Source: Candidatus Saccharimonadota bacterium (GTDB taxonomy: Archaea > Nanobdellota > Nanobdellia > Pacearchaeales > GW2011-AR1). Taken from it: a stretch of DNA of 32,000 nt. Where the stretch lies: assembly GCA_026002795.1 (NCBI GenBank), contig BPGA01000001.1:503453-535452 (forward strand), given 5' to 3'. The notes below the pieces were generated by a model, which was not told the origin of the DNA, ran no database searches, and saw only the letters and a program-made list of their open reading frames with translations. The translations under genes were made by a program, and so were the position numbers. Shown piece after piece: positions 9,921-25,743 of this stretch (its first letter is position 1; every line of letters starts with the position of its first letter).

Positions 9921-9981
9921 AATTAGATAAATCTCTTGTAATTTATAAACTTAAATAATTTAATAAAAGTCTAAAAATTTT

Positions 9982-10251
9982 TTATTCTAACTTTTCTATG
10001 TTTAATTTCCTTTCTAGAAGTTCAACTCTTTGTTGTAGGTTATAAATCTGCGCAGAGAGGTTATCTAGTTTATTAGACATCTCAAGAATTCTTTTTGCAA
10101 GTTTTCTCCTTCTTTCTTCAACACTCTCTAAAGAACTTTCTAAGGAATTCTGTTCTTTTTCACTTTCTTTTTTTAATTCATTTTTCTCTTGAAGCTGCTT
10201 TTTTATTGCTTCTTCAATATCTCTTTTCTTCCTAAATCCAAAAATTCCCAT
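9982..10251 (-). CDS. Small coiled-coil protein (hypothetical)
   Basis: 89 aa with a heptad-rich charged sequence. It is divergent from the 10345 gene. Confidence 0.5.
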   Translation of the reverse strand: MGIFGFRKKRDIEEAIKKQLQEKNELKKESEKEQNSLESSLESVEERRRKLAKRILEMSNKLDNLSAQIYNLQQRVELLERKLNIEKLE

Positions 10252-10344
10252 AAAAATTAAACATAGTTTATATTTTTAAATTTAGTTGTGTTTAGAAACA
10301 TTTTTTAAATAAAAAAGCATCATTATAGTAAATATTTATAAAAA

Positions 10345-11787
10345 ATGAGCGCAAGTATTTCACAAATAATAGGAAAAATAAATCCAACACTTTATGCAGA
10401 AAACGGAAAAGAACTTCTTAAAAAATATCAATATTCAGACAAAATTCCTGCAGAAGAAGTAAAAGAAAAACCGATATCTAAACATGAGTTAGTTTATGAT
10501 TCTTCTTCAGAGACTTTAGAGCCTGTTTATTTTTTTATTTTCGATATGATGAATGATCTTGGTTTAGAAGTAGAGAAATTAGTAGATAATTTTACCTCAT
10601 CTCCAGGTTCAGGCCATTTTGGTGAACTTGGGCAGAGAGCAACAATAATGCAACAACAAGCAACAAAAATATTAGGTGATGTAAATAATGTTTTAAGAAG
10701 CATTTTAAATATTCTTTATGATCTTAAGGATTTTAGAATAAGGCTTAATTATTACGATGATTTAAAAAACGAAAAAAAAAGAGATGCAGCTTTACTTGCT
10801 TTAAAACAAATTTGGTTAGACAAAGTAGATATACAAAAAGGAAATTCTAGTATAAAAGCAATGAGTGTGCAAGGCGGATTTCAATCTTTAATTCATGCTT
10901 TTCTTGCTGTGAAAAATGAGAAGGATGCAGAAAATTTAGATTTAAATGATGTAATTAAAAGAGTTGTAAAGTCAAGAATTTTGGAGTTTAATGAATGGCT
11001 AATAAATTCTGAAAGAGAACTTAGGAATAGATATGAACTTGAAAAAAATTATTTAAGAAGCCAGGTAAATGCTCTTAAATTGTACTCAAGATGGGCCAAA
11101 CCATATTTAAAAGCGGCTTATGAATTAGAAATGAAATCAAGAGAAAAAGAAGCAGCTCTTGTTAAAGTTTTTAATACTCTTCTTTTAGAGCTTTTATTGT
11201 TTGGAAAAAAGAAAATAGATAAAAATGAAGAAGAGAAAAAATTAAATTTGCCAAAAGGAATTTCAAAATTAAAAACAAGGGATTATTATTACTGTGTTAT
11301 TGTAGAATTTAAATTTAGAGGAATTCCTCAAAGAATAAGCCAGCAAGCACATTATGTTTTTGGTGGTAGAGTTGACATTTCATTTAAGTCTTACTCACTT
11401 AATAGCGACGAGTTAAAAAAACTTGAGAAAGAAATTGAAAGTTCTGAATTTGGTGATGTTTTAAAGCTTATAGAGGGAGCTACAACAGAAAGTCTTGACA
11501 GAATTCAAGAAGAAATAAACTTTTTTTTAGAAGAAAAAAGTAGTGAAGAAGAAAAAGAAGAAACTAAAGATACCTCAAATCCTTTTATTGCTTTATTTGG
11601 CGGCTATGAAAAAAAACAAGGAGAAATAGAAACTAAAAAAGAAACAAAAAACGAAACTTTAAAAATTGAAAAAGAAAACTACGCTGAAAAAAATTATTTA
11701 AGGAAATTAGCAGACGAAAAAGCTAAAGAATTAGCGCTTAACCTTTTTGAATCTTATAAAAAAGCTCACGGAATGCCTAGTTTTTAA
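10345..11787 (+). CDS. Hypothetical protein, 480 aa, largely helical with an acidic/lysine-rich C-terminal region
   Basis: Long ORF with a TATA-like box upstream. No motif I can assign and no P-loop. Confidence 0.6.
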   Translation: MSASISQIIGKINPTLYAENGKELLKKYQYSDKIPAEEVKEKPISKHELVYDSSSETLEPVYFFIFDMMNDLGLEVEKLVDNFTSSPGSGHFGELGQRATIMQQQATKILGDVNNVLRSILNILYDLKDFRIRLNYYDDLKNEKKRDAALLALKQIWLDKVDIQKGNSSIKAMSVQGGFQSLIHAFLAVKNEKDAENLDLNDVIKRVVKSRILEFNEWLINSERELRNRYELEKNYLRSQVNALKLYSRWAKPYLKAAYELEMKSREKEAALVKVFNTLLLELLLFGKKKIDKNEEEKKLNLPKGISKLKTRDYYYCVIVEFKFRGIPQRISQQAHYVFGGRVDISFKSYSLNSDELKKLEKEIESSEFGDVLKLIEGATTESLDRIQEEINFFLEEKSSEEEKEETKDTSNPFIALFGGYEKKQGEIETKKETKNETLKIEKENYAEKNYLRKLADEKAKELALNLFESYKKAHGMPSF

Positions 11788-11883
11788 CATTAATTAAAAT
11801 TCTAAAAATTAAAATAAAAAATTCATCAAAAATATTAGAACTTGTTTCTATATATTTATATACTTTTATACTAATTTAATTAT

Positions 11884-12525
11884 ATGGCCACAAACAAAAA
11901 AAAAGTAAAATTTAAACAACTCAAAAAAAATAAAAAATTTAATAGAAATAAAAACCTTTTTGAAATAATTAAGAAAAAGCCTTTAAAAGAGATCATTGTT
12001 GATGAATCTACTTTAGAAAAAGCTATAGAAAGCCTTTCTAAAAAACAAGATTCAGATTTTTCAGAAACATTTTTTCAAGAAAAAAGAGAGGATTTCTTTG
12101 AAACCAATGATTTAATTAACATTTTAGATGATTCAAAAATTAGTTTAGAAAAAGTAGCTCAAGAGATTCAAAGACCAATAATTTTTGGACAGGGTTTTAA
12201 AAATGAAGAAAAATCAGAGTCAGAAACACCAAACTATACAGGAAAATATAAAGAAAAAGAACAAAAAAACTACTCTTTAAGAGAAGAATCATTAAAAACA
12301 CCTTTTTTTAGAGAGAGAATTTTGGTTAGAACACAAAATGAAGAAAAAATTCAAAAAAAACCAGGTGATTTTTTCTTTGAACTCGGATTCAGACAAGACA
12401 ATGTAGAGAGTTTAACATTCGAAAGAAAAAACTTTCAAGAGGAAAAAATGTCTTCAATAGATTATGAAGAAAGAAGAATTCAAGATTATAAACAATACAA
12501 ACCCCGAAAAAATAGAGAAGAGTAA
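11884..12525 (+). CDS. Hypothetical K/E-rich, probably disordered protein
   Basis: 213-aa low-complexity charged sequence with a TATA-like element (tatatatttatata) upstream. Confidence 0.45.
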   Translation: MATNKKKVKFKQLKKNKKFNRNKNLFEIIKKKPLKEIIVDESTLEKAIESLSKKQDSDFSETFFQEKREDFFETNDLINILDDSKISLEKVAQEIQRPIIFGQGFKNEEKSESETPNYTGKYKEKEQKNYSLREESLKTPFFRERILVRTQNEEKIQKKPGDFFFELGFRQDNVESLTFERKNFQEEKMSSIDYEERRIQDYKQYKPRKNREE

Positions 12526-12577
12526 ACAAAAAATCAAAAAAAGTAACTTATATAAATAAAAAATTTTTCTTTAAGTT

Positions 12578-14365
12578 ATGGTAGATTACAAAGCAGCACC
12601 ATATAAAATATCAGATATTTACTCTGGTGGTTATTCATCTTTTCAGCCAGCTCAAACTTCAAAGTATTTTCCTGTCGGATATTTTGGCATGACTACAGAC
12701 CCGCGTTCTGCAAATATTCTTCAGGAGGTAAGTCAAAAGCTTCTTACAGGTGTTAAAAATATTGAAATAGAAGCACTCTCTCAAGAAATTTTTGATTCTA
12801 TACCTAAACAGCATTTGAAAGAGGTAAATAGACTTGCAAAACTTACAGGAATTAATGTTTCTCTTCACGGACCTCTTGTAGATGTCGCTGGTTTTACAAG
12901 ATCAGGATGGAGTGAAATAGAAAGAAAAAACGCAGAAAAAGTAATTGTTGATACTTTACTAAGAGCAAAAGAGTTAAATCCAGATGGAAACATAATTGTA
13001 AATTTCCACTCTTCACAAGGAATTCCAGGAAGCGTTCCTCTACCTCCACATGAAAGAACTGAAGGAAGAGAATACAAATTGATTTACGCTGTTAATAAAG
13101 AAACAGGAGAGTTAGTTAAATTAGAACCAGAAAAAAAATTTTTTCCTGGAGAAGGAAAAGTTGAAGAAAAAGAATTTTCTCCAGAAAAAAGACTTGAAAT
13201 TTTAAACAGAGAAAGTTGGTCAGATAACTTTTCAAGAATACTTTTAAATTTAGACAGAGTTAATGAAATTTTTGAAGAAACAAAACCGTTTATTTTAAAA
13301 TATTTGGATGAAAATGGTCAATTAAAAATAAAAGATATAAGAGAACTTCCTAGTGAAGTAGAAAGAAATGCATTTAGAAGATTTATTTTAGCTAATAAAT
13401 ACCTTACAGAAGAAATCTACTCAAAACAAATTTCAAATTTATTTAGTAAAGCATATGAATACGGAACCCAAGAACAAAAAGAAATGCTTTCTAGTATCTC
13501 TAATAAAATATCTAAGAAGTTAGACAATAATAAAATAAATCCTTTTTCTTTATATGAAGCTATTCATGATATAGTTAATGAATTAGATTCAGAAAACCTT
13601 ACTCCAAAAATTTTTGATAGTTTAGATAATTTTTCGCTTGAGAAGACATCAGAAACATTTGGAAATGCTGCTTGGCAAGCATATAAACAATCAAAAGGAA
13701 AAGGTCTTCCTATACTTACAATAGAAAATCCTCCAGCAGGGTTTGCGTTAAGTACGGGAGAAGAACTAAAAGAGCTTGTAAGAAAATCAAGAGAAAAGTT
13801 TATAGAAAATGCTGTTAAAGAAGGCCTTTCAAGAGAAGCTGCTGAAAAAGAAGCTGAAAAAATTATAGGAGCTACATGGGACGTTGGTCATATAAATATG
13901 TTAAGGAAATTTGGTTACAAGGAAGAGGAAATAATCAAAGAAAGCGAAAAAATTGCTCCTTATTTAAAACATGTACATCTTTCAGATAATTTCGGTCTTG
14001 AGCATACAGAATTGCCAATGGGTATGGGAAATGTTCCTATAAAAGAAATAATGGAGAAACTTGGAGAAAAAGGATTTGAAGCTAAAAAAATAATAGAAGC
14101 AGGAAATTGGTGGCAACATTTTAGAACTCCACCGTTTGTAGAAACTTTAGAAGCAATGGGCTCTCCAATTTATTCGATGGAAATTGGTCAATACTGGAAT
14201 AAGATCGGTTCTTTTTATCAAGGTTATTCTTTAGGAATGGAAGGAGCATGGCTTCCTCAGATAAACTATGAAACATTTGGAGCTGGTTTCTCAATGCTTC
14301 CAAAAGAGCTTGGCGGTTCTAGAACAGGTGCAGGATCTAGGATTTCAGGAAGACCTATGGAATAA
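12578..14365 (+). CDS. Xylose-isomerase-like TIM-barrel (AP endonuclease 2 / sugar-phosphate isomerase-epimerase superfamily) protein with a large internal insertion
   Basis: Superfamily landmarks: GINVSLHGP, IIVNFHSSQG, LTIENPP, WDVGHINM, HVHLSDNFGLEHTELPMGMGNVPIKEI and IIEAGNW. About 200 aa of helical insert lie between the NFH and IENPP strands. Confidence 0.7.
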   Translation: MVDYKAAPYKISDIYSGGYSSFQPAQTSKYFPVGYFGMTTDPRSANILQEVSQKLLTGVKNIEIEALSQEIFDSIPKQHLKEVNRLAKLTGINVSLHGPLVDVAGFTRSGWSEIERKNAEKVIVDTLLRAKELNPDGNIIVNFHSSQGIPGSVPLPPHERTEGREYKLIYAVNKETGELVKLEPEKKFFPGEGKVEEKEFSPEKRLEILNRESWSDNFSRILLNLDRVNEIFEETKPFILKYLDENGQLKIKDIRELPSEVERNAFRRFILANKYLTEEIYSKQISNLFSKAYEYGTQEQKEMLSSISNKISKKLDNNKINPFSLYEAIHDIVNELDSENLTPKIFDSLDNFSLEKTSETFGNAAWQAYKQSKGKGLPILTIENPPAGFALSTGEELKELVRKSREKFIENAVKEGLSREAAEKEAEKIIGATWDVGHINMLRKFGYKEEEIIKESEKIAPYLKHVHLSDNFGLEHTELPMGMGNVPIKEIMEKLGEKGFEAKKIIEAGNWWQHFRTPPFVETLEAMGSPIYSMEIGQYWNKIGSFYQGYSLGMEGAWLPQINYETFGAGFSMLPKELGGSRTGAGSRISGRPME

Positions 14366-14437
14366 AACTATCTGTTAAAAAATAAAAACAAAAAGAATAA
14401 AAAGTATATTCTGTAAAATATATAAAAGAGAATAAAA

Positions 14438-15271
14438 ATGAAAAAAGTTAGTCAACAAAAAAATAAGTTAAAAAAAGAGTTAAAAAAATTTCCAACACTC
14501 CAAATTAAAAGAGAAAAGGATATTGCTCTAGATTTTGCCACAAAAGTTTATAAAAAATTTGATAAACTTATTAAATCTGTTGTTCTTTTTGGTTCAAGTG
14601 CAAAACAAACAAATGTTCTTGGTTCTGATATTGATGTAATGATAATTATAGATGATGTTACAATAAACTGGGATCAAGAGTTAATAGCATGGTATAGAGA
14701 AGAGCTAGAGAAATTAGTTAAAGAAAATCCATATAATAGGCCTTTACACATTAATACAATAAAATTAAGCAGCTGGTGGGAAGATATTTTAAGAGGCGAT
14801 CCTGTTGTGATTAACATTTTAAGATACGGAGAAGCTTTAATTGATTTTGGCGGTTTTTTTGAGCCATTGAAAATGCTTCTTATACAAGGAAAAATAAAAT
14901 CAACTCCAGAGGCAATTTTTAGTGCATTACAAAGAGCACCACAACATTTAGTAAGAAGTAAAATAGCAGAACTTAATTCTATCGAAGGAATTTATTGGGC
15001 AATGGTTGATGCAGCTCATGCAGCTTTAATAGCAGCGAATGTACAACCAGCTTCTCCAGAGCATATTGCTGCTGACTTAAAAGAAGTTTTTGTTAATAAC
15101 GGAAAATTAAATATGAAATATGTTGTTTGGTATAGAGATTTACATCTTCTACATAAAAAAATAGCGCATGGAGAAGTTAAAGAATTAAAAGGTGTTGAAA
15201 TAGATCAGTGGCAGGAAAGAGCTCAAGAATTTTTAGATGTTATGGGTCAGCTTGTGAAAGAATTAGTTTGA
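14438..15271 (+). CDS. Nucleotidyltransferase (Pol-beta superfamily) fused to a HEPN-like helical domain
   Basis: LFGSSAKQTNVLGSDIDVMIIIDD (GS...DxD) and a C-terminal helical region with an Rx5H pattern (RDLHLLH). Paralogous to 23742..25580. Confidence 0.75.
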   Translation: MKKVSQQKNKLKKELKKFPTLQIKREKDIALDFATKVYKKFDKLIKSVVLFGSSAKQTNVLGSDIDVMIIIDDVTINWDQELIAWYREELEKLVKENPYNRPLHINTIKLSSWWEDILRGDPVVINILRYGEALIDFGGFFEPLKMLLIQGKIKSTPEAIFSALQRAPQHLVRSKIAELNSIEGIYWAMVDAAHAALIAANVQPASPEHIAADLKEVFVNNGKLNMKYVVWYRDLHLLHKKIAHGEVKELKGVEIDQWQERAQEFLDVMGQLVKELV

Positions 15272-15300
15272 TAGATTTGAATCCTGGATTTATTTAAACT

Positions 15301-15957
15301 TTACAAATAACTTTCTAGTTCTTTTAATAATCTTTTTGACCTATTTGCAGCCTCTAACCTTAACTCTTCACTTAACCCTTTATCTTCAGCCATCTCTCTA
15401 AGATCCGTATAATAACCTTCTTTCACATACAAATCAATAGCCCTTCTTCCAGCTTCATCAACTTTTCTTCCAGCTTCTAACCTTAACTCTTCACTTAAAC
15501 CTCCATCTTTAGCCATCTCTCTAAGATCCGTATAATTACCTCTTTCAGCACAAAAATCAATAGCCCTTCTTCCCGCCTCTAACCTTAACTCTTCACTTAA
15601 ACCTCCATCTTTAGCCATCTCTCTAAGATACGTATAATAACCTTCTTTCACATACAAATCAATAGCCCTTCTTCCAGCTTCTAACCTTAACTCTCTACTT
15701 AATCTCTCATCTTCAGCCATATCTACAAGAACACAATAATTACCTCTTTCAGCACAAAAATCAATAGCCCTTCTTCCAGCCTCTAACCTTACCTCTTCAC
15801 TTAACCCTTTATCTTCAGCCATCTCTCTAAGATCCGTATAATAACCTTCTTTCACATACAAATCAATAGCCCTTCTTCCAGCCTTTAATCTTATTGAAGG
15901 GTTTTCACTATGTTTTGCTAAAATTAAGAGTTCTTCAAGGTTTAGTTCTTTTGTCAT
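15301..15957 (-). CDS. Helical tandem-repeat protein, family copy A (218 aa; N-cap, 3 x 34-aa units, 1 x 41-aa unit, C-cap)
   Basis: Repeats such as LREMAEDKGLSEEVRLEAGRRAIDFCAERGNYCV show a HEAT/PBS-lyase-like pattern (xxVRxxAxxxAxxL). Shares the conserved N-cap MTKELNLEELLILAK and tail NRSKRLLKELESYL. Confidence 0.8.
   Translation of the reverse strand: MTKELNLEELLILAKHSENPSIRLKAGRRAIDLYVKEGYYTDLREMAEDKGLSEEVRLEAGRRAIDFCAERGNYCVLVDMAEDERLSRELRLEAGRRAIDLYVKEGYYTYLREMAKDGGLSEELRLEAGRRAIDFCAERGNYTDLREMAKDGGLSEELRLEAGRKVDEAGRRAIDLYVKEGYYTDLREMAEDKGLSEELRLEAANRSKRLLKELESYL
15403..15831 (-). repeat. In-frame tandem coding repeats (102-bp and 123-bp units) of copy A
   Basis: The nucleotide motif ccttcttccagc(c/t)tctaaccttaactc recurs at unit spacing. 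Confidence 0.85.
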
Positions 15958-16080
15958 GTTTTTTTTGAAGAAAAGCCTATTTATAAATCTTTCGGTTTTA
16001 TTATCACTCTACAGTTACTATTATTAATCTTTATTTTGATTGTTATTTTGGTTGTTGTGTTTTATGTTATGTTTTTGTAT
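15958..16080 (-). promoter_or_regulatory. Conserved upstream cassette of the repeat family (copy A): A8 run, BRE/TATA, CA-rich tract
   Basis: Nearly matches 17326-17452 and 22093-22219. Sense strand CCGAAAGATTTATAAATAGGC has its TATA centre about 26 nt upstream of the ATG. Confidence 0.75.
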
Positions 16081-16104
16081 TACAAATAAAAAGTTAAGAC
16101 TTAA

Positions 16105-16149
16105 ATTTTAAACCTTTTTATTAAAAATTTAAGAAACTATTTTTAAACT
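16105..16149 (-). repeat. Conserved ~43-bp block immediately 3' of the repeat-gene stop codon (copy B)
   Basis: Matches 20942-20984 except for one indel (aaacctttttattaaaa(a)tttaagaaactatttttaaact). Confidence 0.7.
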
Positions 16150-17325
16150 TTACAAATAACTTTCTAGTTCTTTTAATAATTTTTTTGACCTATTTTTAGC
16201 TTCTGTCCTTATATCTTTACTTAACCTTCCATCTTCAGCCATCTTTATAAGACCCCTATAATTACCTCTTTTCGCACACAAATCAACAGCCCTTCTTCCA
16301 GCCTCTAACCTTAACTCTTCACTTAAACTTCTATCTTTAGCCATCTCTCTAAGACACCAAGAATCACCTCTTTCAGCATACAAATCAACAGCTCTCATCG
16401 CAGCCTCATCCACTCTTCTTCCAGCCTCTAACCTTACCTTTTCACTTAAACTTCTATCTTTAGCCATCTCTCTAAGATCCCAATAATTACCTCTTTTCGC
16501 ACACAAATCAACAGCCCTTCTTCCAGCCTCTAACCTTAACTCTTCACTTAAACTTCTATCTTTAGCCATCTCTCTAAGATCCGTATAATAACCTTCTTTC
16601 ACATACAAATCAACAGCTCTCATCGCAGCCTCATCCACTCTTCTTCCAGCCTCTAACCTTACCTTTTCACTTAACCTCTTATCTTTAGCCATCTCTCTAA
16701 GACCCCTATAATTACCTATTTCAGCATACAAATCAACAGCTCTCATCGCAGCCTCATCCACTCTTCTTCCAGCCTCTAACCTTACCTTTTCACTTAAATT
16801 TCTATCTTCAGCCATCTCTCTAAGACCCCTATAATTACCTCTTTCAGCATACAAATCAACAGCTCTCATCGCAGCCTCATCCACTCTTCTTCCAGCCTCT
16901 AACCTTACCTTTTCACCTAACCTCTTATCTTTAGCCATCTCTCTAAGACCCCTATAATTACCTCTTTCAGCATACAAATCAACAGTTCTCATCGCAGCCT
17001 CATCCACTCTTCTTCCAGCCTCTAACCTTACCTTTTCACTTAAATTTCTATCTTTAGCCATCTCTCTAAGACCCCTATAATTACCTCTTTCAGCATACAA
17101 ATCAACAGTTCTCATCGCAGCCTCATCCACTCTTCTTCCAGCCTCTAACCTTACCTTTTCACTTAAACTTCTATCTTTAGCCATCTCTCTAAGATACGCA
17201 TGCACATAATAACCTTTTTTCACATACAAATCAATAGCTCTCATTCCCGCTTCTACTCTTATTGAAGGGTCTTCACTATATTTTGCTAAAATTAAGAGTT
17301 CTTCAAGGTTTAGTTCTTTTGTCAT
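16150..17325 (-). CDS. Helical tandem-repeat protein, family copy B (391 aa; N-cap, 6 x 41-aa units, 2 x 34-aa units, C-cap)
   Basis: Five consecutive, nearly matching 123-bp units (LREMAKDRxLSEKVRLEAGRRVDEAAMRxVDLYAERGNYRG), then alternating 34-aa and 41-aa units. Same caps as copy A. Confidence 0.8.
   Translation of the reverse strand: MTKELNLEELLILAKYSEDPSIRVEAGMRAIDLYVKKGYYVHAYLREMAKDRSLSEKVRLEAGRRVDEAAMRTVDLYAERGNYRGLREMAKDRNLSEKVRLEAGRRVDEAAMRTVDLYAERGNYRGLREMAKDKRLGEKVRLEAGRRVDEAAMRAVDLYAERGNYRGLREMAEDRNLSEKVRLEAGRRVDEAAMRAVDLYAEIGNYRGLREMAKDKRLSEKVRLEAGRRVDEAAMRAVDLYVKEGYYTDLREMAKDRSLSEELRLEAGRRAVDLCAKRGNYWDLREMAKDRSLSEKVRLEAGRRVDEAAMRAVDLYAERGDSWCLREMAKDRSLSEELRLEAGRRAVDLCAKRGNYRGLIKMAEDGRLSKDIRTEAKNRSKKLLKELESYL
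16252..17193 (-). repeat. In-frame tandem coding repeats of copy B (five 123-bp units at 16579-17193, then 102/123/102 bp)
   Basis: The motif tcttcttccagcctctaaccttacctttt recurs with a 123-nt period. Confidence 0.9.
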
Positions 17326-17452
17326 GTTTTTTTTGAAGAAAAGCCTATTTATAAATCTTTCGGGTTTATTATCACTCTACAGTTACTATTATTAATCTTT
17401 ATTTTGATTGTTATTTTGGTTGTTGTGTTTCGTGGTGTGTTTTTGTTTTTTG
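17326..17452 (-). promoter_or_regulatory. Conserved upstream cassette of the repeat family (copy B)
   Basis: Same block as 15958-16080 and 22093-22219. BRE/TATA lies at 17346-17363. It abuts the stop codon of the wHTH gene. Confidence 0.75.
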
Positions 17453-17457
17453 AAATT

Positions 17458-17916
17458 TTATTTTAAAACAACAATGTTAGTCATTCCTCTTCTTTTTCTT
17501 TCGATCAGCTGTTTTGATTCTAATTTATCTAAAATTCTAGAAACTTTAGATTTTGGAAAATTGAAATGTTCAACAATTTCACTTTGATAAACACCTTTAT
17601 CTTTATTTTCTTTTATAAAAGAGAAGACTTTCTTTTCTTCAGAGTTAAGTTTGCTTATGTCATAATCTTTTTGCTCAATAATTCTCTCTTTACTAAAAAA
17701 CACTAAATAAAATCCAAGCGCCAATATAAAAGAAAAAATTCCAATTGCAAAATGAGAAACAGATATTCCTCTTTCAATTACAATACACTCTTTGTTGTTG
17801 TAACAGCCCAACTGCTCTGATTTTTCTGTAAGATTTGAGATATAGTAAATAAAAATGCCTCCGACAATTAACGAGATCACAATTAAAACAATTCCTAATT
17901 TTTTGTTATTGTCCAT
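17458..17916 (-). CDS. Membrane-anchored winged-helix (MarR/TrmB-like) DNA-binding protein
   Basis: Two TM helices (LGIVLIVISLIVGGIFIYYI and HFAIGIFSFILALGFYLVFF), then a wHTH-like region: GVYQSEIVEHFNFPKSKVSRILDKLESKQLIERKRRGMTNIV. Confidence 0.7.
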   Translation of the reverse strand: MDNNKKLGIVLIVISLIVGGIFIYYISNLTEKSEQLGCYNNKECIVIERGISVSHFAIGIFSFILALGFYLVFFSKERIIEQKDYDISKLNSEEKKVFSFIKENKDKGVYQSEIVEHFNFPKSKVSRILDKLESKQLIERKRRGMTNIVVLK

Positions 17917-18022
17917 TTTTCTTTTAATTTTTTATGGTATAATAATTTTTTGCTTAAGAGAAAATTATTTAAACTAGAAATTATTTAAGTTAATTATTTA
18001 TTAAGTTAAAGAGGTAAAAACA

Positions 18023-18442
18023 ATGAGTTACGGGTTAGTTAATGAAAAAGTTGTTCCAACTGGTGTAAAAATTATTGCTGTTTTATATTATATTGGTGCA
18101 GTTATTTTGATAGTTTTTGGTTTGCTTCCACTTTTTGCAATAGGTAGAGAAGCAATTGCTTTAACTTTAGGAATTATCATCCTTCCGGCCTTAATTATGC
18201 TTGGCCTTGGTATTTTTTCGTTTTTTATAGGTAGGGGTTTATGGAAAGGAAGAAATTGGGCTAGAATTATTGCTATAATAGTATCTGTTTTAGGAGCTAT
18301 TACTGGAATTTTAGGAGTTGCTATTGGAGCTATTTTAATGTTTCCATCTAGTTTAACTACAAGCTTAATTTCTATTGCAATAAATGTACTTATAGGATCA
18401 TATCTTTTATTCAATAAAAAAGTAAAACAAGCATTTGCTTAA
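18023..18442 (+). CDS. Integral membrane protein, about 4 TM helices (hypothetical)
   Basis: Hydrophobic 139-aa ORF with a GRGLWKGRNWAR loop. Confidence 0.6.
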   Translation: MSYGLVNEKVVPTGVKIIAVLYYIGAVILIVFGLLPLFAIGREAIALTLGIIILPALIMLGLGIFSFFIGRGLWKGRNWARIIAIIVSVLGAITGILGVAIGAILMFPSSLTTSLISIAINVLIGSYLLFNKKVKQAFA

Positions 18443-18567
18443 ACTTTCCATCGCTTTTGTGAGAAAATTTTTATTCTAAAAAAGAAAAAGAGATTTATTA
18501 TAAATAAGTTAATTTTAGAGTTCTTGGAAAGGTCTAAATTTATTAATTTTGAATAATTAAATTAAAT

Positions 18568-19335
18568 ATGATAAAAATACAAAAAATTCAGGACCCTAAT
18601 AAAGGCCAGCATTTTCTTGTTAGTAAAGAGATAATTAAAAAAGAAATTAAAGAAGCAAACATCTCAAAAAAAGACTTGGTTATTGAAATTGGTGCGGGAA
18701 CAGGAAATTTAACAGAAGAACTTTCAAAATATGCAGGAAAAGTTATTGCTTATGAAATTGATAAAAGTTTTGAAAATGACTTAATGAGTTTACAAAAAAA
18801 TTATGAAAATCTAATTGTGATTTTTGATGATGCATTTAATCATTCATGGAAAAACTGCACTAAAATAGTTTCAAATATACCTTTTTATGTTTCTGACAAA
18901 ATTATTTTTAAAGCCATTCAAGAAGATATTAAGGAGATAATTCTTCTTGTTGGAGAAAAATTCAAGAAAAAACTTTCCAACAGAAAAACAAAAATTGGTT
19001 TTATAGCAAACTTATTTTATGAAATAGAATTTTTAATGAAAGTTAAAAAAGAAAATTTTTATCCTAGACCCAGGGTTGATTCTTGGCTAATTAGGCTTAA
19101 GATAAAAAAACCAAATTCAAAATTTGAAAGCATTTTAAGGTCTTTTATTTTAAAAAAAGGAAAAATAAAAAACGCAATAATTTACTCTTTTGTAGAAAAC
19201 AAAAAAACAAAGAGAGAAGCTCGTTATTTTATAAAAAAAGCTGGTTTTTTTACTAGTGTTTTAGAAAAACCTGTTTCAAGAGTTACAGGAAATTTTTTAG
19301 TTAGGCTTGAAAATTCTTTAAAAAGTTTTCTTTAA
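18568..19335 (+). CDS. rsmA: 16S/18S rRNA adenine dimethyltransferase (KsgA/Dim1 family)
   Basis: GQHFL, SAM motif VIEIGAGTGNLTEEL, VSNIPFYVS and FYPRPRVDS. Confidence 0.85.
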   Translation: MIKIQKIQDPNKGQHFLVSKEIIKKEIKEANISKKDLVIEIGAGTGNLTEELSKYAGKVIAYEIDKSFENDLMSLQKNYENLIVIFDDAFNHSWKNCTKIVSNIPFYVSDKIIFKAIQEDIKEIILLVGEKFKKKLSNRKTKIGFIANLFYEIEFLMKVKKENFYPRPRVDSWLIRLKIKKPNSKFESILRSFILKKGKIKNAIIYSFVENKKTKREARYFIKKAGFFTSVLEKPVSRVTGNFLVRLENSLKSFL

Positions 19336-19355
19336 CTTTTTTAAACTTTAAACGA

Positions 19356-20342
19356 TTAAACAATTCCATTTTCTACAATCTCGTTCCAAGAGCGCTCTCC
19401 TATAGCAACCATTGCTTCTAACATTGTTAAAATTGGTTTAGGATATTTTGCAAAATCATCGAGAGCAATCCTAGGGCATGCCAATTCTACAAAAGCCTCT
19501 ACATTATAAAAATTCATTATCTTATCTGGGGTAACTTCTGACATTGTTATTACAACAGCTTTTTTTCCTGCAGCTCTTAGTTTTTCAAGAAGTTTTCTAG
19601 GATTTCCAAATTTTTGGCCAGGTTTAATCTCTATTATTATACCTATGTTTTTAGCTTCTCTAAACTTTTCTATTGAAAAAAGTCTTTGCTTAAGAATTTT
19701 TTCACGCAAACCAGCCATGCTTCTTACTTCATCATTATAAACATCTAAAAGAATAACTGGTTTTTTAACTGCAAGTGCAGCGCCCATCGCATGAAACTGG
19801 TTTCCAATTATCACAAAACAATCCACGCCTTCTTGAATTGCTTTCAATCCTCTATACTCACAACCAGTTATATGTCCTTCATAAGCATTTGTTCCAACTT
19901 TTTTTGAGAGAGTTACTTGTTTTCCATTTTTTTCATAAAAATCCTTTATCTTTTGTATGTCATGTCTGTGCTGAATTGAATAAGAAAGTCCAATTTTTTT
20001 ATAATTTTTAAGATGTGGAATGGATTTTTTTAGTATTGAACTTAAATCAAGTATATCTTTAACTTCAATATACAGAACAGGAAAGTCAACATCAATAAAT
20101 TTAGCATGGCCAAAATGTACAATTAAATCAACTCCTAAAGCCTGAGCTTCCTGAATAGCAACAGAGCAAGCGCCCCAACAACTTTCTCCTGAAAAAATAC
20201 ATTCTATACCTAAAGATTCTATCCACTCTGAAATTTCGTGGGCGTTTTGTTTTATGCCTTCTGCTAGCTGTACAAGCACTTTTTTAGGCTTTCTTTTTTT
20301 TAATTCTTTAATTAAAGTTTCTTTTTCAAAGTCAAGTGTCAT
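19356..20342 (-). CDS. dph2: 2-(3-amino-3-carboxypropyl)histidine synthase (diphthamide biosynthesis, Dph2)
   Basis: Archaeal Dph2-like three-domain layout, with conserved Cys in ESCWGACSVA, GHITGCEYRG and ELACPRIA. 328 aa. Confidence 0.9.
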   Translation of the reverse strand: MTLDFEKETLIKELKKRKPKKVLVQLAEGIKQNAHEISEWIESLGIECIFSGESCWGACSVAIQEAQALGVDLIVHFGHAKFIDVDFPVLYIEVKDILDLSSILKKSIPHLKNYKKIGLSYSIQHRHDIQKIKDFYEKNGKQVTLSKKVGTNAYEGHITGCEYRGLKAIQEGVDCFVIIGNQFHAMGAALAVKKPVILLDVYNDEVRSMAGLREKILKQRLFSIEKFREAKNIGIIIEIKPGQKFGNPRKLLEKLRAAGKKAVVITMSEVTPDKIMNFYNVEAFVELACPRIALDDFAKYPKPILTMLEAMVAIGERSWNEIVENGIV

Positions 20343-20382
20343 TTTAAAACTTAAAAAGAATTAGATTATAAGTATTTTGGTT

Positions 20383-20463
20383 TTAGCAGCAGATTCCTCT
20401 GCAATCTGAACAGTTTTCTTCTCCACAAATCATGCATCTTTCTTCTTCAATCTCTTTACTCAT
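20383..20463 (-). CDS. Candidate micro-ORF (26 aa, six Cys): MSKEIEEERCMICGEENCSDCRGICC
   Basis: Hand-translated and absent from the ORF track. It has CxxC-x4-CxxC-x3-CC, an SD-like GAGGT 9 nt upstream of the ATG, and local GC enrichment relative to the flanking spacer. It lies 40 nt upstream of dph2. Confidence 0.35.
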   Translation of the reverse strand: MSKEIEEERCMICGEENCSDCRGICC

Positions 20464-20509
20464 TTTTATAAAACCTCTTTAAATGCCTTTATTTCAATTT
20501 TTATAAAGA

Positions 20510-20920
20510 TTAACTCTTATTTAAAATTTTTTGTAGCTTCTCAATAAACTCTCTTAACTGAATTATATCTAAATTATTTTGTGCTGTTTCGTGTAAATAA
20601 TTTCCGTCATTTAGAGGAATTGCATTAAAACCAGTTATCATTTCATTACATCTAAAATATAAATAACCAGCAATATGATTTCTGCTAAACCAAACATCAA
20701 TAAAAGGTTCTATATGTGTTTTTTTGTAACAGCTTAATCTAACCCCAGAGTTCAAATAACCCCTAATTTTTACATCAACATTAAGATAAAAATCTTGGCC
20801 AATAGGAAAACTAATTCCACCAAGATTTCTTAATTCTCTTTGTGAGCTTAATTCGTAAAAATTTAAAAATTCTTCTAGATTTACTAGCCCTTCTCTTAAA
20901 ACAACTCTTGAAATGCTCAT
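20510..20920 (-). CDS. Hypothetical protein (136 aa)
   Basis: ORF between repeat copy C and dph2. No recognised motif. Confidence 0.5.
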   Translation of the reverse strand: MSISRVVLREGLVNLEEFLNFYELSSQRELRNLGGISFPIGQDFYLNVDVKIRGYLNSGVRLSCYKKTHIEPFIDVWFSRNHIAGYLYFRCNEMITGFNAIPLNDGNYLHETAQNNLDIIQLREFIEKLQKILNKS

Positions 20921-20941
20921 AGAAGAACATAGAAACTTCTC

Positions 20942-20984
20942 TTTTAAACCTTTTTATTAAAATTTAAGAAACTATTTTTAAACT
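20942..20984 (-). repeat. Conserved ~43-bp block immediately 3' of the repeat-gene stop codon (copy C)
   Basis: Matches 16105-16149. It may carry a terminator and/or the TATA of the next gene. Confidence 0.7.
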
Positions 20985-22092
20985 TTACAAATAACTTTCT
21001 AGTTCTTTTAATAATCTTTTTGACCTATTTCCCGCCTCTAACCTTATCTCTTCACTTAACCCCTCATCTTCAGCCATCTTTATAAGACAACTATAATTAC
21101 CTGTTTCAGCATACAAATCAATAGCTCTCCTTCCAGCTTCATCAACTTTTCTTCCAGCTTCTAACCTTAACTCTCTACTTAATCTCTCATCTCTAGCCAT
21201 CTTTTTAAGAACACTATAATTACCTGTTTCAGCATACAAATCAACAGCCTTTCTTCCAGCTTCTAACCTTAACTCTCTACTTAATCTCTCATCTTCAGCC
21301 ATCTCTCTAAGATCCATATAATAACCTTTTTTCACATAAAAATCAATAGCTCTCCTTCCAGCTTCTAACCTTAACTCTCTACTTAATCTCTCATCTCTAG
21401 CCATCTTTTTAAGAACACTATAATTACCTGTTTCAGCATACAAATCAACAGCCTTTCTTCCAGCTTCTAACCTTAACTCTCTACTTAACCTCTCATCTTC
21501 AGCCATCTCTCTAAGATCCATATAATAACCTTTTTTCACATAAAAATCAATAGCTCTCCTTCCAGCTTCATCAACTTTTCTTCCAGCTTCTAACCTTATC
21601 TCTTCACTTAATCTCTCATCTCTAGCCATCTTTTTAAGATCACTATAACTACCTGTTTCAGCATACAAATCAACAGCCTTTCTTCCAGCTTCTAACCTTA
21701 ACTCTCTACTTAACCTCTTATCTTCAGCCATATCTACAAGATCACTATAATTACCTGTTTTCAGCATACAAATCAATAGCCTTTCTTCCAGCTTCTAACC
21801 TTAACTCTCTACTTAACCTCTCATCTTCAGCCATCTTTATAAGAACCCAATAATAACCTTCTTTCACATAAAAATCAATAGCTCTCCTTCCAGCTTCATC
21901 AACTTTTCTTCCAGCTTCTAACCTTAACTCTCTACTTAACCCCTCATCTTCAGCCATCTTTACAAGACCACTATAACTACCTCTTTCAACACACCAATCA
22001 ATAGCCTTTCTTCCAGCCTTTAATCTTTTTGAAGGGTCTTCACTATGTTTTGCTAAAATTAAGAGTTCTTCAAGGTTTAGTTTTTTTGTCAT
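20985..22092 (-). pseudogene. Helical tandem-repeat protein, family copy C, interrupted by a +1-nt frameshift (would be 368 aa with 8 units if repaired)
   Basis: Track ORFs 20985..21776 and 21751..22113 overlap and carry the same repeats. The T run at 21758-21761 is 4 nt, where paralogous units read cctgtttcagc (3 T). Length 1108 nt = 3n+1. Confidence 0.75.
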
Positions 22093-22219
22093 GTTTTTTT
22101 CAAAGAAAAGCATATTTATAAATCTTTCGGTTTTATTATCACTCTACAGTTACTACTCTTAATCTTTATTTTGATTGTTATTTTGGTTGTTGTGTTTCGT
22201 GGTGTGTTTTTGTTTTTTG
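22093..22219 (-). promoter_or_regulatory. Conserved upstream cassette of the repeat family (copy C)
   Basis: Same block as copies A and B. BRE/TATA lies at 22113-22130. It has an A7 run, as does the 983-1016 copy. Confidence 0.75.
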
Positions 22220-22259
22220 TAAACTACTCTTAGAAGAATAAATCAACAACTTTTGTTCT

Positions 22260-22808
22260 TTAATTTGCTGCTTGTTTTTTTATTTCTGACACAATTCTTA
22301 CTTTACAAGGTATCTTTGATTTTACTCTTTCAAATACCTCTCTTGTTAATTTTAATGTTTTTTCATTTGGTAAAGCAGCCCAAAAAATTTTTGTTTCTGG
22401 ATTTAATATAGTTGCTCTTGCAGTTGGTTTACCAAAAGATAATTGCATTCCAGACTGCATTCTATCTGCTCCGGCCCCAGTCAGCATTTTATTTTCTCTT
22501 TGTATATGATGTGGAAAAGGAATTACCTTAAAAAGATATTTACCAGCTAAATTTTTATCAAGAATTTTGTGAATATACTGTCTACAAGCTTCTAAAGCAT
22601 TACTTCTTACTTGCGCTTTTTCTTCTGAAATCATAACTACTTCATAAGGTAGTTCTCCTTTATTATACATTTCAATAGAACCCATAACAAATTTAACAAC
22701 ATTGCTTTGCGGTACTGTCTTTATATAAGATTTTTCTTTCTTTTTGCTTACCCTAGTGTAAGGCACGACTTTCTTTTTAGAGTATGATGCTGCTTTTCTT
22801 AATGCCAT
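22260..22808 (-). CDS. rpl10e: 50S ribosomal protein L10e (uL16)
   Basis: MALRKAASYS...PYTR...FVMG...VRSNALEACRQ...GAGADRM..GMQLSFGKP is typical of archaeal L10e. Confidence 0.93.
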   Translation of the reverse strand: MALRKAASYSKKKVVPYTRVSKKKEKSYIKTVPQSNVVKFVMGSIEMYNKGELPYEVVMISEEKAQVRSNALEACRQYIHKILDKNLAGKYLFKVIPFPHHIQRENKMLTGAGADRMQSGMQLSFGKPTARATILNPETKIFWAALPNEKTLKLTREVFERVKSKIPCKVRIVSEIKKQAAN

Positions 22809-22810
22809 TT

Positions 22811-23113
22811 TTATCTTTTTCTAGAAATATAAACACTAATTTCACTTCTAGAATCTTCATACATTTTAATTAATTCAACTAAACTACAAGATTCTAAGTT
22901 ATATTCATAAACTCTTTCTGTCAATATTATATTTTTTTTGTTGCTTCTATTGCTTGCAGAAACAACGGTCTTTCTCTCAATTAAAACATCATAATTTGAG
23001 CCATCTAAATATCTTTCTATAACTTGATAAGGTATAACCTCCTCTAAATCAAGTGTTTTAAGATCTTTAACTAGATAAACTTTCTGTATCCTCATTGTTC
23101 TTTTATTTTTCAT
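22811..23113 (-). CDS. Hypothetical protein (100 aa), 2 nt upstream of rpl10e
   Basis: ORF only. Co-oriented and tightly packed with the ribosomal protein genes. Confidence 0.5.
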   Translation of the reverse strand: MKNKRTMRIQKVYLVKDLKTLDLEEVIPYQVIERYLDGSNYDVLIERKTVVSASNRSNKKNIILTERVYEYNLESCSLVELIKMYEDSRSEISVYISRKR

Positions 23114-23147
23114 TTTAAAATATAGTTTATTTGATAATCTGTTGACA

Positions 23148-23405
23148 TTAACCTTTTAATAATCTTTTTATTAGACTTTCGTCATTGTAATGATGTAAAA
23201 CTAAAAGATCACCGTTTTCTACAGCTCTTACTATATAAAATTTTTCATCAACCTTTATAATAGCATTTAAAATAATTCCTTTTCTTAAAAAAGAAGAGTT
23301 TTCATCTTCTACATCACTACTAAGTAAAACACTACCTAAATATTTTAAACTCCTTCCAATTTCTTTTGGTTTGTATCTTTTACCAACCTTTAATTCAAGA
23401 CCCAT
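23148..23405 (-). CDS. Hypothetical protein (85 aa)
   Basis: ORF only. It lies between rpl35ae and the 100-aa ORF. Confidence 0.5.
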   Translation of the reverse strand: MGLELKVGKRYKPKEIGRSLKYLGSVLLSSDVEDENSSFLRKGIILNAIIKVDEKFYIVRAVENGDLLVLHHYNDESLIKRLLKG

Positions 23406-23434
23406 TTTTAATTTTTTTGATTAATTTAGTTTTT

Positions 23435-23689
23435 TTACTTTATTTCTACTTCTGTTGTAATTGCTTGTCCAGGCAAACCTTTTTCAAAAATTGCACGAAC
23501 AAGACCTTTATTTCCATGAGGAGATGAAATTTTACCTTTAATAATTTTTCCTGAAGGCGATTTCCATTCCACAATTTTTCCTAAAAATTTTTTTGCTTCA
23601 TTTCTATCTTTAGCTCCTACATCTATTAAAAAATGCCTTTTGTGTATTGTATGTCTTCCTCTTCTAAATTGCATAATTTTTCCTTTCAT
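23435..23689 (-). CDS. rpl35ae: 50S ribosomal protein L35Ae (eL33)
   Basis: GKIVEWKSPSGKIIKGKISSPHGNKGLVRAIFEKGLPGQA matches the L35Ae signature region. Confidence 0.9.
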   Translation of the reverse strand: MKGKIMQFRRGRHTIHKRHFLIDVGAKDRNEAKKFLGKIVEWKSPSGKIIKGKISSPHGNKGLVRAIFEKGLPGQAITTEVEIK

Positions 23690-23741
23690 AATAAATTTAT
23701 TGATTAAATGATTTTAAAAATTTTTATTTTTGTCTGAATAT

Positions 23742-25698: not shown

Positions 25699-25743
25699 TT
25701 TTTAAGAAATAAAATGTAGATCTTTTTAAAATTTTAGAAAAAA

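What the first reader, a model, noticed from the sequence alone, without database searches (positions are those of the whole stretch)
15301..17452. Multi-copy helical tandem-repeat gene family with a fixed promoter cassette and a fixed C-terminal tail
Two adjacent minus-strand genes (15301..15957 and 16150..17325), a third copy at 20985..22092 and a chimeric remnant at 49..339 share three elements. These are an N-cap (MTKELNLEELLILAK), a variable number of nearly matching 34-aa and 41-aa units (4, 8 and 8 full units in copies A, B and C), and the tail NRSKRLLKELESYL. Nucleotide identity between units, both within and between genes, is very high, which indicates ongoing unequal recombination or gene conversion. 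The units show a HEAT/PBS-lyase-like pattern (SxxxRLEAGRRAIDLY), suggesting a protein-binding alpha-solenoid. Invariant 5' and 3' ends flanking a length-variable interior, in several copies within 22 kb of a compact genome, is what an expansion/contraction (variable surface or host-interaction) family would look like. I know of no described equivalent in archaea. The function is entirely inferred.
Basis: partly seen in the sequence, partly recalled or inferred. Interest (0 to 1): 0.8.

Follow-up and report, generated by a model that had tools for sequence, protein, structure and literature searches.

The report
Expanded HEAT-like repeat genes, tiny archaeon
A very small (535 kb) symbiont-type archaeal genome carries several recently duplicated, recombining genes for an uncharacterised helical-repeat protein, each with the same promoter and the same end; the genes are real and their evolution is unusual, but their function is unknown.

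Summary
Three minus-strand genes (A 15301..15957, B 16150..17325, C 20985..22092) share a ~126-nt upstream cassette, an N-cap, 34/41-residue units and a 14-residue tail. Corrections: the unit counts are 5, 9 and 9, and C has a +1 frameshift. The "remnant" is the 3' end of a fourth cassette-to-tail locus (47..1008) with an unrelated interior.

AlphaFold models both intact proteins confidently as alpha-solenoids, and the nearest folds are HEAT-type. No curated family matches. The genes are not orphans: a whole-database HMMER search finds 186 distant clusters, in other DPANN archaea and at least one bacterial contig. These share the caps and the 34/41 dimorphism.

Within the window, units evolve by tandem duplication and a 21-nt slip. 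Replacement changes concentrate on the turn and short helix (pN/pS 1.67, against 0.38 at core positions). The copies lie at both breakpoints of a 7-kb synteny break against a related archaeon.

There is no signal peptide or membrane segment, so a surface role is unsupported. The most likely function is a cytoplasmic protein-binding scaffold family with diversifying specificity. I rate it a new variant of a known kind, of moderate interest.

The parts
15301..15957 (-). Gene A: 218 aa, N-cap + 5 units (34,34,34,34,41) + tail; pI 5.06
   Evidence: AF2 pLDDT 93.5, pTM 0.82
15958..16083 (-). Upstream cassette of A (~126 nt); BRE/TATA CCGAAAGATTTATAAATA at 15978..15995, starting 30 nt before the ATG (leaderless mRNA inferred)
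16150..17325 (-). Gene B: 391 aa, N-cap + 9 units (36, 41x5, 34, 41, 34) + tail; pI 9.40
   Evidence: AF2 pLDDT 90.7
17326..17451 (-). Upstream cassette of B; BRE/TATA at 17346..17363
   Evidence: the Logan contig ends inside it at 17423; no RNA structure, z = +0.98
20985..22092 (-). Gene C: N-cap + 9 units + tail, split by a +1 frameshift (extra A at 21758..21761); after correction 368 aa, pI 6.78
   Evidence: the N-terminal fragment is GIU68751.1, KatS3mg001_601
22093..22218 (-). Upstream cassette of C, directly downstream of the L10e gene; BRE/TATA at 22113..22130
   Evidence: the Logan contig ends inside it at 22190
20941..20984 (-). 3' flank of C (~45 nt, T-rich), shared with the 3' flank of B (16105..16149); the duplicated unit therefore runs from promoter to beyond the stop codon
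963..1008 (-). Fourth copy of the core promoter (46 nt identical to C's version), here driving an unrelated gene
   Evidence: the Logan contig starts inside it at 979
336..962 (-). 'gene208': a 208-aa protein of unknown function placed between the promoter copy and the tail; a 99% paralogue is KatS3mg001_036
   Evidence: 73% homologue in relative L010
49..339 (-). 96-aa ORF (GIU68728.1) whose start overlaps the gene208 stop codon (ATGA): a ~75-aa protein-kinase N-lobe-like fragment fused to 'EELRLEAANRSKRLLKELESYL'. Homology to the repeat genes covers 47..118

Best explanation
This is a lineage-specific, recently expanded set of paralogues of an uncharacterised family of capped HEAT-like alpha-solenoid proteins. 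The genome is a 535-kb Pacearchaeota (DPANN) genome. Shown: each gene is a complete portable unit, made of a ~126-nt upstream cassette with BRE/TATA, an N-terminal capping helix, 5-9 helical hairpins of 34 or 41 residues, a C-terminal capping helix and, for B and C, a shared 3' flank. In each hairpin a long helix of 17 or 24 residues is followed by a short helix of 9. Shown: the arrays change by tandem duplication of unit blocks. A 21-nt slip between 11-nt direct repeats toggles units between 34 and 41 residues. The gene ends stay more alike than the interiors. Shown: cassette and tail copies mark a fourth locus with foreign content, and the repeat genes sit at both edges of a 7-kb synteny break. 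Inferred: recombination among the dispersed copies drives unit-number change, homogenisation of the gene ends and local genome rearrangement. Inferred: transcripts are leaderless. Inferred: the proteins are soluble cytoplasmic protein-binding scaffolds. Their conserved long-helix layer builds the solenoid. The turn around the invariant Gly, the exposed side of the short helix and the following loop form a diversifying binding surface. The paralogues (pI 5.1, 9.4 and 6.8) would then recognise different partners.
For: Anatomy. Fold: AF2 pLDDT 90.7 and 93.5, all-alpha with alternating long and short helices. Foldseek's best matches are HEAT/ARM proteins, YibA and alphaRep. Family: 186 clusters at E<=1e-3 among 1.84 billion representatives. 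N- and C-caps are conserved in distant members. Unit spacing across the family peaks sharply at 34 (29 cases) and 41 (44 cases). Recombination: the C5-C6 block against the C7-C8 block is 203/204 identical apart from a 21-nt indel flanked by GAAGCTGGAAG. Units are 86% identical within genes and 79-83% between genes, while the upstream 130 nt is 88-95% and the N-cap 95-97% identical. Selection: pN/pS is 0.97 overall, 1.67 at codons 15, 17, 19, 20, 22, 28 and 29, and 0.38 at conserved codons; nine residues are invariant. Location in the cell: no hydrophobic segment. Rearrangement: relative L010 has L10e, the gene208 homologue and the NTase gene in a row, where the window has C ... B, A. Promoter: the BRE/TATA core is shared with L010's gene208 promoter.
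Against: No partner, expression data or functional homologue exists, so 'protein-binding scaffold' rests only on fold class and the pattern of variable positions. An overall pN/pS near 1, a frameshifted copy and a chimeric locus would also fit relaxed constraint or decay. The pN/pS values come from non-independent paralogous units in a 28% GC genome with constrained synonymous sites, so they are indicative only. No conserved gene neighbourhood was seen in relatives. The polarity of the synteny change is unknown because there is no outgroup.
Confidence: 0.6

Rival explanations
1. This is a variable surface or host-contact family. The proteins would be exposed on or exported from the symbiont, and repeat number would vary to change or evade host recognition.
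For: Several copies have length-variable interiors, and replacement changes are excessive at specific positions. The organism is a DPANN archaeon with a 535-kb genome, a group generally thought to depend on hosts (my own knowledge).
Against: There is no signal peptide, membrane segment or anchor: the N-terminus is a charged capping helix and max KD19 is 0.43. There is no long simple-sequence tract of the kind that drives phase variation; the A-run in C is only 4 nt. Distant homologues lie among housekeeping genes with no secretion genes nearby.
Confidence: 0.1
2. These are modular nucleic-acid-binding repeats in the manner of TALE, PUF or PPR proteins. Each 34/41-residue unit would read one base through the hypervariable residues next to the invariant glycine.
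For: The units are near-identical two-helix repeats of ~34 residues. Variable residues (15, 17, 19, 20) cluster at the inter-helix turn, and Arg is conserved at positions 1, 6 and 7. B is basic, with pI 9.4. Two alternating unit lengths recall the P/L/S motifs of PPR proteins (my own knowledge).
Against: A is acidic (pI 5.06) and C neutral, and pI across the family runs from 5 to 9 with no basic bias. No TALE, PUF or PPR profile or fold match was found. The conserved Arg/Glu/Asp residues are spaced i, i+4, which fits intrahelical salt bridges.
Confidence: 0.1
3. This is decaying or selfish repeat DNA. The copies would be non-functional or on the way to loss, and the pattern would reflect recombination alone.
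For: Overall pN/pS is ~1. C is frameshifted. The fourth locus and its duplicate KatS3mg001_035 are truncated chimeras. The exact A and B sequences are absent from the public protein collection.
Against: A and B keep open frames of 218 and 391 codons in a 28% GC genome. Nine unit positions are invariant, and core codons have pN/pS 0.38. AF2 confidence is very high without an alignment. Each copy keeps an intact consensus BRE/TATA. The family persists across distant lineages.
Confidence: 0.1
4. This is an ordinary member of a curated repeat family (HEAT/PBS-lyase HEAT-like, TPR, ankyrin, or the small UPF0147, YaeP or BPSL0761 proteins) with a stable housekeeping role.
For: The units carry the D..VR..A signature, and the nearest folds are HEAT-class. 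B reaches 43.3 bits against BPSL0761_fam, whose cut-off is 35. Of 115 family members, 42 give summed hits to BPSL0761_fam, 19 to YaeP and 19 to PRK04330 (UPF0147). The unit profile hits YaeP structure 5h1n at E = 0.0047.
Against: Pfam HEAT, HEAT_2, HEAT_PBS, TPR, Ank and Arm give no hit at E<=1 for A, B or C. All hits to the small-protein families are sums over repeats with no individually significant stretch. Foldseek TM-scores are at most 0.45. Unit number differs between paralogues, and the locus is absent from a close relative's syntenic site.
Confidence: 0.05
5. This is an assembly artefact: one repeat gene was duplicated or mis-joined by the assembler.
For: Near-identical units (some 100%) are hard to assemble. 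Short-read Logan contigs break at every copy. The frameshift in C could be an assembly or sequencing error.
Against: Each copy has unique flanks that match independent contigs at 100% identity. Units differ by 17-21% between genes, and each gene has its own unit variants. Four separate junctions are supported.
Confidence: 0.03

Closest known systems
HEAT-like / PBS-lyase HEAT-like repeat proteins (E. coli YibA, PDB 1oyz; synthetic alphaRep, 7q1e_D; HEAT solenoids such as karyopherin-beta2, SF3B1 and CAND1)
   Same: Two antiparallel helices per unit stack into an alpha-solenoid. The turn-plus-helix signature 'D..(L)(P/S)..(V/L)R..A' is present. These are the best Foldseek matches.
   Different: No Pfam HEAT, HEAT_2 or HEAT_PBS hit. 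TM-scores are only 0.15-0.45. The helices are unequal (17 or 24 residues against 9), and there is a strict 34/41 dimorphism with dedicated N- and C-caps.
Small helical proteins of unknown function: UPF0253/YaeP (PDB 5h1n), UPF0147 (Ta0600, PDB 2qsb; PRK04330), BPSL0761 family (NF041728), SRE_fam
   Same: They share the motif 'L..MA.D..L[PS]..VR..A'. The unit profile hits YaeP at E = 0.0047, and many family members give summed hits to these models.
   Different: Those are single-domain proteins of 55-90 residues, whereas these are arrays of 5-9 units with caps. No single stretch is individually significant. None of them has a known function, so the link gives no mechanism.
Lineage-specific expansions of repeat-protein genes (ankyrin, TPR, Sel1, LRR) in host-dependent bacteria, and recombining TALE genes of Xanthomonas (my own knowledge)
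   Same: Several paralogues have conserved ends and a variable number of near-identical units. They evolve by unequal recombination, and replacement changes concentrate on exposed positions.
   Different: The repeat type is different. No secretion signal or secretion system was seen, the organism is archaeal, and no target is known.

Membership tests
HEAT / HEAT_2 / HEAT_PBS (Pfam PF02985, PF13646, PF03130) | Significant match to the family profile | tested here: not met
   No such hit at E<=1 for A, B or either C fragment. Only 1 of 115 relatives hits HEAT_2, at 3.7e-4.
HEAT / HEAT_2 / HEAT_PBS | Helix-turn-helix units stacked into an alpha-solenoid | tested here: met
   AF2 pLDDT 90.7 and 93.5 with alternating helices. 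Foldseek's top hits are HEAT/ARM proteins, YibA and alphaRep, but TM-scores are <=0.45.
HEAT / HEAT_2 / HEAT_PBS | Conserved Asp ... (V/I/L)-Arg-x-x-Ala signature at the turn and start of the second helix | tested here: met
   D27, R1 and A4 are invariant in all 23 units. The family consensus is 'D..LPE.VR..A'. The HEAT consensus used for comparison is from my own knowledge.
BPSL0761 family / YaeP (UPF0253) / UPF0147 | Whole-protein score above the curated cut-off with an individually significant domain; small single-domain architecture | tested here: inconclusive
   B scores 43.3 bits against a cut-off of 35 for BPSL0761_fam, but with 0 significant stretches. A is below cut-off. The architecture (218-391 aa arrays) differs from these 55-90-aa proteins.
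TPR (34-residue repeat) | Match to TPR profiles; two helices of about equal length | tested here: not met
   No TPR hit. The helices are 17 or 24 residues against 9.
Ankyrin repeat | Match to Ank profiles; helix pair plus beta-hairpin loop; 33-residue period | tested here: not met
   No Ank hit for A, B or C, and no strand in the models. Giant ankyrin proteins appear among the HMMER hits (P0017, P0073, P0075, P0135) only as summed periodic matches, and they lack the unit motif.
TALE-like / PUF / PPR nucleic-acid-reading repeats | Profile or fold match; basic binding surface; one hypervariable specificity site per unit | tested here: not met
   No profile or fold match. pI is 5.06, 9.40 and 6.78. 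Variable residues do cluster at the turn, so a functional analogy is not excluded.
Phase-variable / contingency surface gene family | Export or anchoring signal, and a hypermutable simple-sequence tract | tested here: not met
   No hydrophobic segment. The only frameshift lies in a 4-nt A-run. Population polymorphism cannot be tested with these tools.

The most novel reading that the evidence does not exclude
The fixed promoter cassette and fixed tail act as recombination handles of a gene-cassette system in a minimal genome. They would let interiors be expanded, contracted or swapped; the fourth locus carries unrelated cargo between the same ends. The diversifying solenoids would be effectors that bind host proteins, reaching the host through cell-to-cell cytoplasmic connections without a secretion signal. 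That would be an archaeal counterpart of the ankyrin, TPR and TALE effector expansions of bacterial symbionts.
Probability: 0.1. Interest if true: 0.8.

Novelty: new variant of a known kind. Interest (0 to 1): 0.5.

Why it matters
DPANN archaea have very small genomes, so recently amplified, recombining paralogues stand out. Here at least five loci and more than 3 kb are involved. In bacterial symbionts, expansions of this kind mark proteins that deal with the host. The work also defines an uncurated repeat family with a strict 34/41-residue dimorphism and dedicated caps, which could become a Pfam entry. It gives a concrete case of dispersed gene copies sitting at the breakpoints of a genome rearrangement. 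Finally, the near-ideal, confidently folding units from a thermophile may interest repeat-protein designers.

Tried and rejected
(1) The word-index homology search failed twice: with B and with the unit alignment. The index does not cope with these charged repeats, and only the full HMMER scan worked. (2) Scans of genome, metagenome and viral contigs with the three-gene alignment found no close relative. (3) Pfam, NCBIfam and PDB sequence searches with whole proteins gave only repeat-inflated hits with no significant stretch, such as Il2rg, OstA_2, RHH_7 and AcrIIA3; I rejected these as noise. (4) Ankyrin kinship was considered because giant ankyrin proteins scored E ~1e-21, and rejected. (5) PADLOC gave nothing for A, B or gene208. 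(6) BFVD fold search gave only generic solenoids. (7) Rfam found only four tRNAs, and the cassette RNA fold has z = +0.98, so there is no RNA element in the cassette. (8) The sigma-70 promoter and terminator scan is not relevant to an archaeon. (9) Gene neighbourhoods of five distant homologues share nothing. (10) Six literature searches (UPF0147, KatS3mg, DPANN + HEAT repeat, YaeP/UPF0253, BPSL0761, Pacearchaeota + tandem repeat) found no description of the family. (11) The NCBI contig itself could not be fetched, so the second chimeric locus (KatS3mg001_035/036) could not be read.
Full report
**Source.** The window belongs to a 535,452-bp contig of a metagenome-assembled "Candidatus Pacearchaeota archaeon" (locus-tag prefix KatS3mg001). 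Exact protein look-ups tie window genes to GIU68742.1 (_592, 14438..15271), GIU68745.1 (_595, 17458..17916), GIU68749.1 (_599, 20510..20920), GIU68751.1 (_601, the N-terminal fragment of copy C) and GIU68728.1 (_578, 49..339). GC content is about 28%. The surrounding genes are housekeeping: gyrase, seryl-tRNA synthetase, ribosomal proteins L10e, L35Ae and S10, KsgA, Dph2 and thymidylate synthase.

- ORFs A (15301..15957, 218 aa) and B (16150..17325, 391 aa) are intact.
- Tandem Repeats Finder reports 102- and 123-nt periods (34 and 41 codons) and higher-order periods of 204, 225 and 328 nt.
- The 44-nt tail-coding sequence occurs four times with at most one mismatch. Two probes from the upstream cassette occur three times each. 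None is expected by chance.
- The conserved upstream block is about 126 nt. It is 88-95% identical over 130 nt between copies, and the first 66 coding nt are 95-97% identical.
- B and C also share about 45 nt after the stop codon. The duplicated module therefore runs from promoter to 3' flank.

- Counting the unit fused to the N-cap, A has 5 units and B and C have 9 each.
- C is broken by one extra A (GAAAACAGG at 21758..21761, where sister units read GAAACAGG). This gives two ORFs. Whether it is a true pseudogene or a sequence error cannot be decided here.
- The 41-residue unit is the 34-residue unit plus seven residues (EAGR[KR]VD) inserted after "RL".

**Independent assembly check.** Logan contigs assembled from run DRR290133 match the window at 100% identity. 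They stop at 979, 17423, 20988 and 22190, each inside a cassette or tail copy. That is how a short-read assembler behaves at truly repeated sequence. It also confirms the unique flanks of every copy. Units differ by 17-21% between genes, so the idea of a single locus duplicated by the assembler is excluded. The internal unit order remains unverified.

**Fold.** AlphaFold2 without an alignment models B at mean pLDDT 90.7 and A at 93.5 (pTM 0.82). Both are all-alpha. Each unit is a long helix (17 residues, or 24 in 41-type units) followed by a 9-residue helix, and capping helices sit at both ends. Foldseek against the PDB returns HEAT/ARM solenoids (karyopherin-beta2, SF3B1, CAND1, Vac8), E. coli YibA, alphaRep and designed helical repeats. 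TM-scores are only 0.15-0.45. Viral structures give only generic solenoid matches. The units carry the HEAT-type signature: D27, then L30 and S31, then R1 and A4 of the next unit, all invariant or nearly so. So the fold class is HEAT-like, with its own geometry.

**No curated family matches.** Pfam gives no HEAT, TPR, Ank or Arm hit even at E<=1. What it does report are sums over repeats with zero significant stretches. NCBIfam and PDB sequence searches behave the same way.

**The genes are not orphans.**
- The word-index search found nothing. A full HMMER scan of 1.84 billion cluster representatives found 186 proteins at E<=1e-3 and 75 at E<=1e-10.
- Apart from the window's own fragment, these are 16-36% identical. 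Named examples come from Nanoarchaeota and Woesearchaeota MAGs. One well-scoring cluster lies on a contig with typically bacterial genes: a LytTR regulator, LacZ and SpoIIE.
- Distant members keep an N-cap ("L.LEELLLL...D...R..AG") and a C-cap ("A...L..Y...L...RL"). The fixed ends are therefore the family's capping helices.
- A unit HMM iterated on the hits shows that adjacent units are spaced almost exclusively 34 (29 cases) or 41 (44 cases) residues apart. The two classes have different sequence signatures. The dimorphism is ancient and family-wide.
- Of 115 members, none hits a Pfam repeat family. They give only summed weak hits to UPF0253 and UPF0147, and in NCBIfam to BPSL0761_fam (42 members), YaeP (19), PRK04330 (19) and SRE_fam (9).
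- The unit profile hits the YaeP structure 5h1n at E = 0.0047 and Ta0600 (2qsb) at E = 0.68. All of these are small proteins of unknown function.
- Giant ankyrin proteins among the hits are periodicity noise.
- I found no paper on the family.

**How the copies evolve.**
- Two unit subtypes, "VK[EK]GYY" and "AE[RT]GNY", are shared by all three genes and tend to alternate. A two-unit super-repeat therefore predates the gene duplications.
- Within genes, subtypes are homogenised: B2-B5 are 93-98% identical and C6 equals C8.
- In C, the block C5-C6 and the block C7-C8 are 203/204 identical except for a 21-nt indel flanked by the 11-nt direct repeat GAAGCTGGAAG. That indel makes C5 a 41-residue unit and C7 a 34-residue unit. 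This is direct evidence for recent tandem duplication, and it offers a slip mechanism for switching unit length.
- Even the best between-gene unit pairs (90-91%) are less alike than the N-cap (95-97%). The non-coding cassette (88-95%) also exceeds the 79-83% mean for units between genes. This points to gene conversion or strong constraint at the 5' ends.

**Selection pattern.** Across the 23 units, pN/pS is 0.97. It is 0.38 at conserved codons and 1.67 at codons 15, 17, 19, 20, 22, 28 and 29. Using the modelled secondary structure, those codons are the turn around the invariant G16, the non-core side of the short helix, and the loop after D27. The long helix is conserved (R1, E3, A4, R6/R7, A8, D10). 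The three proteins differ strongly in charge, with pI 5.06, 9.40 and 6.78, and none has a hydrophobic segment. The units are not independent and synonymous sites are compositionally constrained, so I treat these ratios as indicative only.

**Promoter.** The sequence CCGAAAGATTTATAAATA, which I read as BRE plus TATA, starts 30 nt before each ATG. That places the expected transcription start at or near the ATG, giving a leaderless mRNA. This is an inference from usual archaeal promoter geometry. Looser versions of the motif precede other genes in the window. The cassette has no predicted RNA structure and no Rfam match.

**The fourth locus.**
- A 46-nt copy of the promoter, identical to C's variant, lies at 963..1008. 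It drives an unrelated 208-aa gene (336..962).
- That gene's stop codon overlaps the start of the 96-aa ORF at 49..339.
- Residues 30-65 of that ORF align weakly but consistently with the glycine-loop-to-VAIK region of 131 protein-kinase structures. The kinase-like part then joins, at "NNPEE|LRLEA", the last partial unit and the tail.
- The same two-gene module exists elsewhere in the genome: KatS3mg001_036 is 99% identical to the 208-aa gene, and _035 has the same first 75 residues and then "EEIRLD*". The family therefore touches at least five loci.

**Synteny.** A related Pacearchaeote contig (L010; L10e is 85% identical) has the order L35Ae, L10e, homologue of the 208-aa gene, then the convergent NTase and AP-endonuclease-family genes. 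In the window, the L10e side maps to 24077..22262 and the NTase side to 15277..9976. The 208-aa gene maps to 1019..329. The 7 kb in between (C, a 136-aa orphan, Dph2, KsgA, a membrane protein, a wHTH regulator, B and A) has no counterpart at that site. Both breakpoints are repeat genes. The relative's promoter for the 208-aa gene shares the BRE/TATA core. Recombination among dispersed cassette, unit and tail copies is the simplest reading, but the direction of change cannot be set without an outgroup.

**Mechanism.** My best explanation is a lineage-specific expansion of a capped HEAT-like solenoid family. It evolves by unequal crossing-over and gene conversion, and it encodes soluble cytoplasmic scaffolds. 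Their conserved long-helix layer builds the solenoid, and their turn and short-helix surface diversifies to bind different partners, most likely proteins. The anatomy, the fold class, the recombination traces, the existence of a wider family and the synteny break are shown. The binding role, the leaderless transcription and the causal link to rearrangement are inferred. The rivals are a surface or host-contact family, a nucleic-acid-reading array, decay, a curated housekeeping family and an assembly artefact. Each is weighed in its own section of this report, and none is favoured by the data.

**Verdict.** The finding is real and somewhat richer than described, with a fourth locus, a frameshift, a synteny break and a wider family. 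Its functional interpretation remains open, and the surface-protein idea lacks support. It is a new variant of a known kind (an alpha-solenoid repeat family) with unusual dynamics for a minimal genome. Interest is 0.5.

Noticed in passing
window 21758..21761: An extra A in a short A-run splits copy C into two ORFs. The public record annotates the 113-aa N-terminal piece as its own protein (GIU68751.1). It could be a true pseudogene or a sequence error.
   Followed up: partly
window 336..1008: A 46-nt copy of the repeat-gene core promoter drives an unrelated 208-aa gene of unknown function. A JGI source names a 73% homologue '6-pyruvoyl-tetrahydropterin synthase', but Pfam gives no support for that. 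A 99% paralogue, KatS3mg001_036, lies elsewhere in the genome.
   Followed up: partly
window 49..339: Residues 30-65 of the 96-aa ORF look like the N-lobe (glycine loop to VAIK lysine) of a Ser/Thr protein kinase, cut off and fused to the repeat-gene tail. An 80-aa near-duplicate, GIU68185.1 (_035), ends 'EEIRLD*'.
   Followed up: partly
window 15277..22262 compared with L010 1942..2757: A related Pacearchaeote contig has only the 208-aa gene homologue between L10e and the NTase gene. The window has a 7-kb block there, bounded by repeat genes.
   Followed up: yes
window 979, 17423, 20988, 22190 (ends of L002, L011, L001): Independent short-read (Logan, DRR290133) contigs are 100% identical to the window and end exactly inside cassette or tail copies. 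L002 also ends at 8160, in an AT-rich tandem-repeat patch (8094..8171).
   Followed up: yes
window 15301..15957 and 16150..17325: The exact A and B protein sequences are absent from the 15-billion-protein collection, although the locus-tag numbering (_593, _594) leaves room for them. They may be annotated with other boundaries or not at all.
   Followed up: partly
window 17458..17916: A 152-aa protein with an N-terminal membrane segment and a C-terminal winged-helix domain (DUF7343/MarR-like) ends about 7 nt before the start of B's upstream cassette. It is a candidate regulator, but this was not tested.
   Followed up: no
window 14438..15271 and 23742..25580: Two proteins carry a minimal nucleotidyltransferase domain (NTP_transf_2), with weak hits to PADLOC candidate systems (PDC-S09, PDC-M05A). 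The first is convergent with gene A and conserved in relative L010.
   Followed up: no
window 20510..20920: A 136-aa orphan lies directly downstream of C on the same strand. It has no Pfam, NCBIfam or PADLOC hit and is a singleton cluster in the protein collection.
   Followed up: no
window 25628..26616 and 7949..8020: There are four tRNA genes (Gly-GCC, Val-TAC, Ser-GGA and Asp-GTC). No other Rfam family is found in the window.
   Followed up: yes
hits P0078 and one member of alignment A5: Two HMMER hits carry a DnaJ (J) domain. P0078 has no significant unit match to the unit HMM, and the second protein was not identified, so family membership is doubtful or unknown. If real, a J-domain fusion would fit a client-binding role.
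   Followed up: partly
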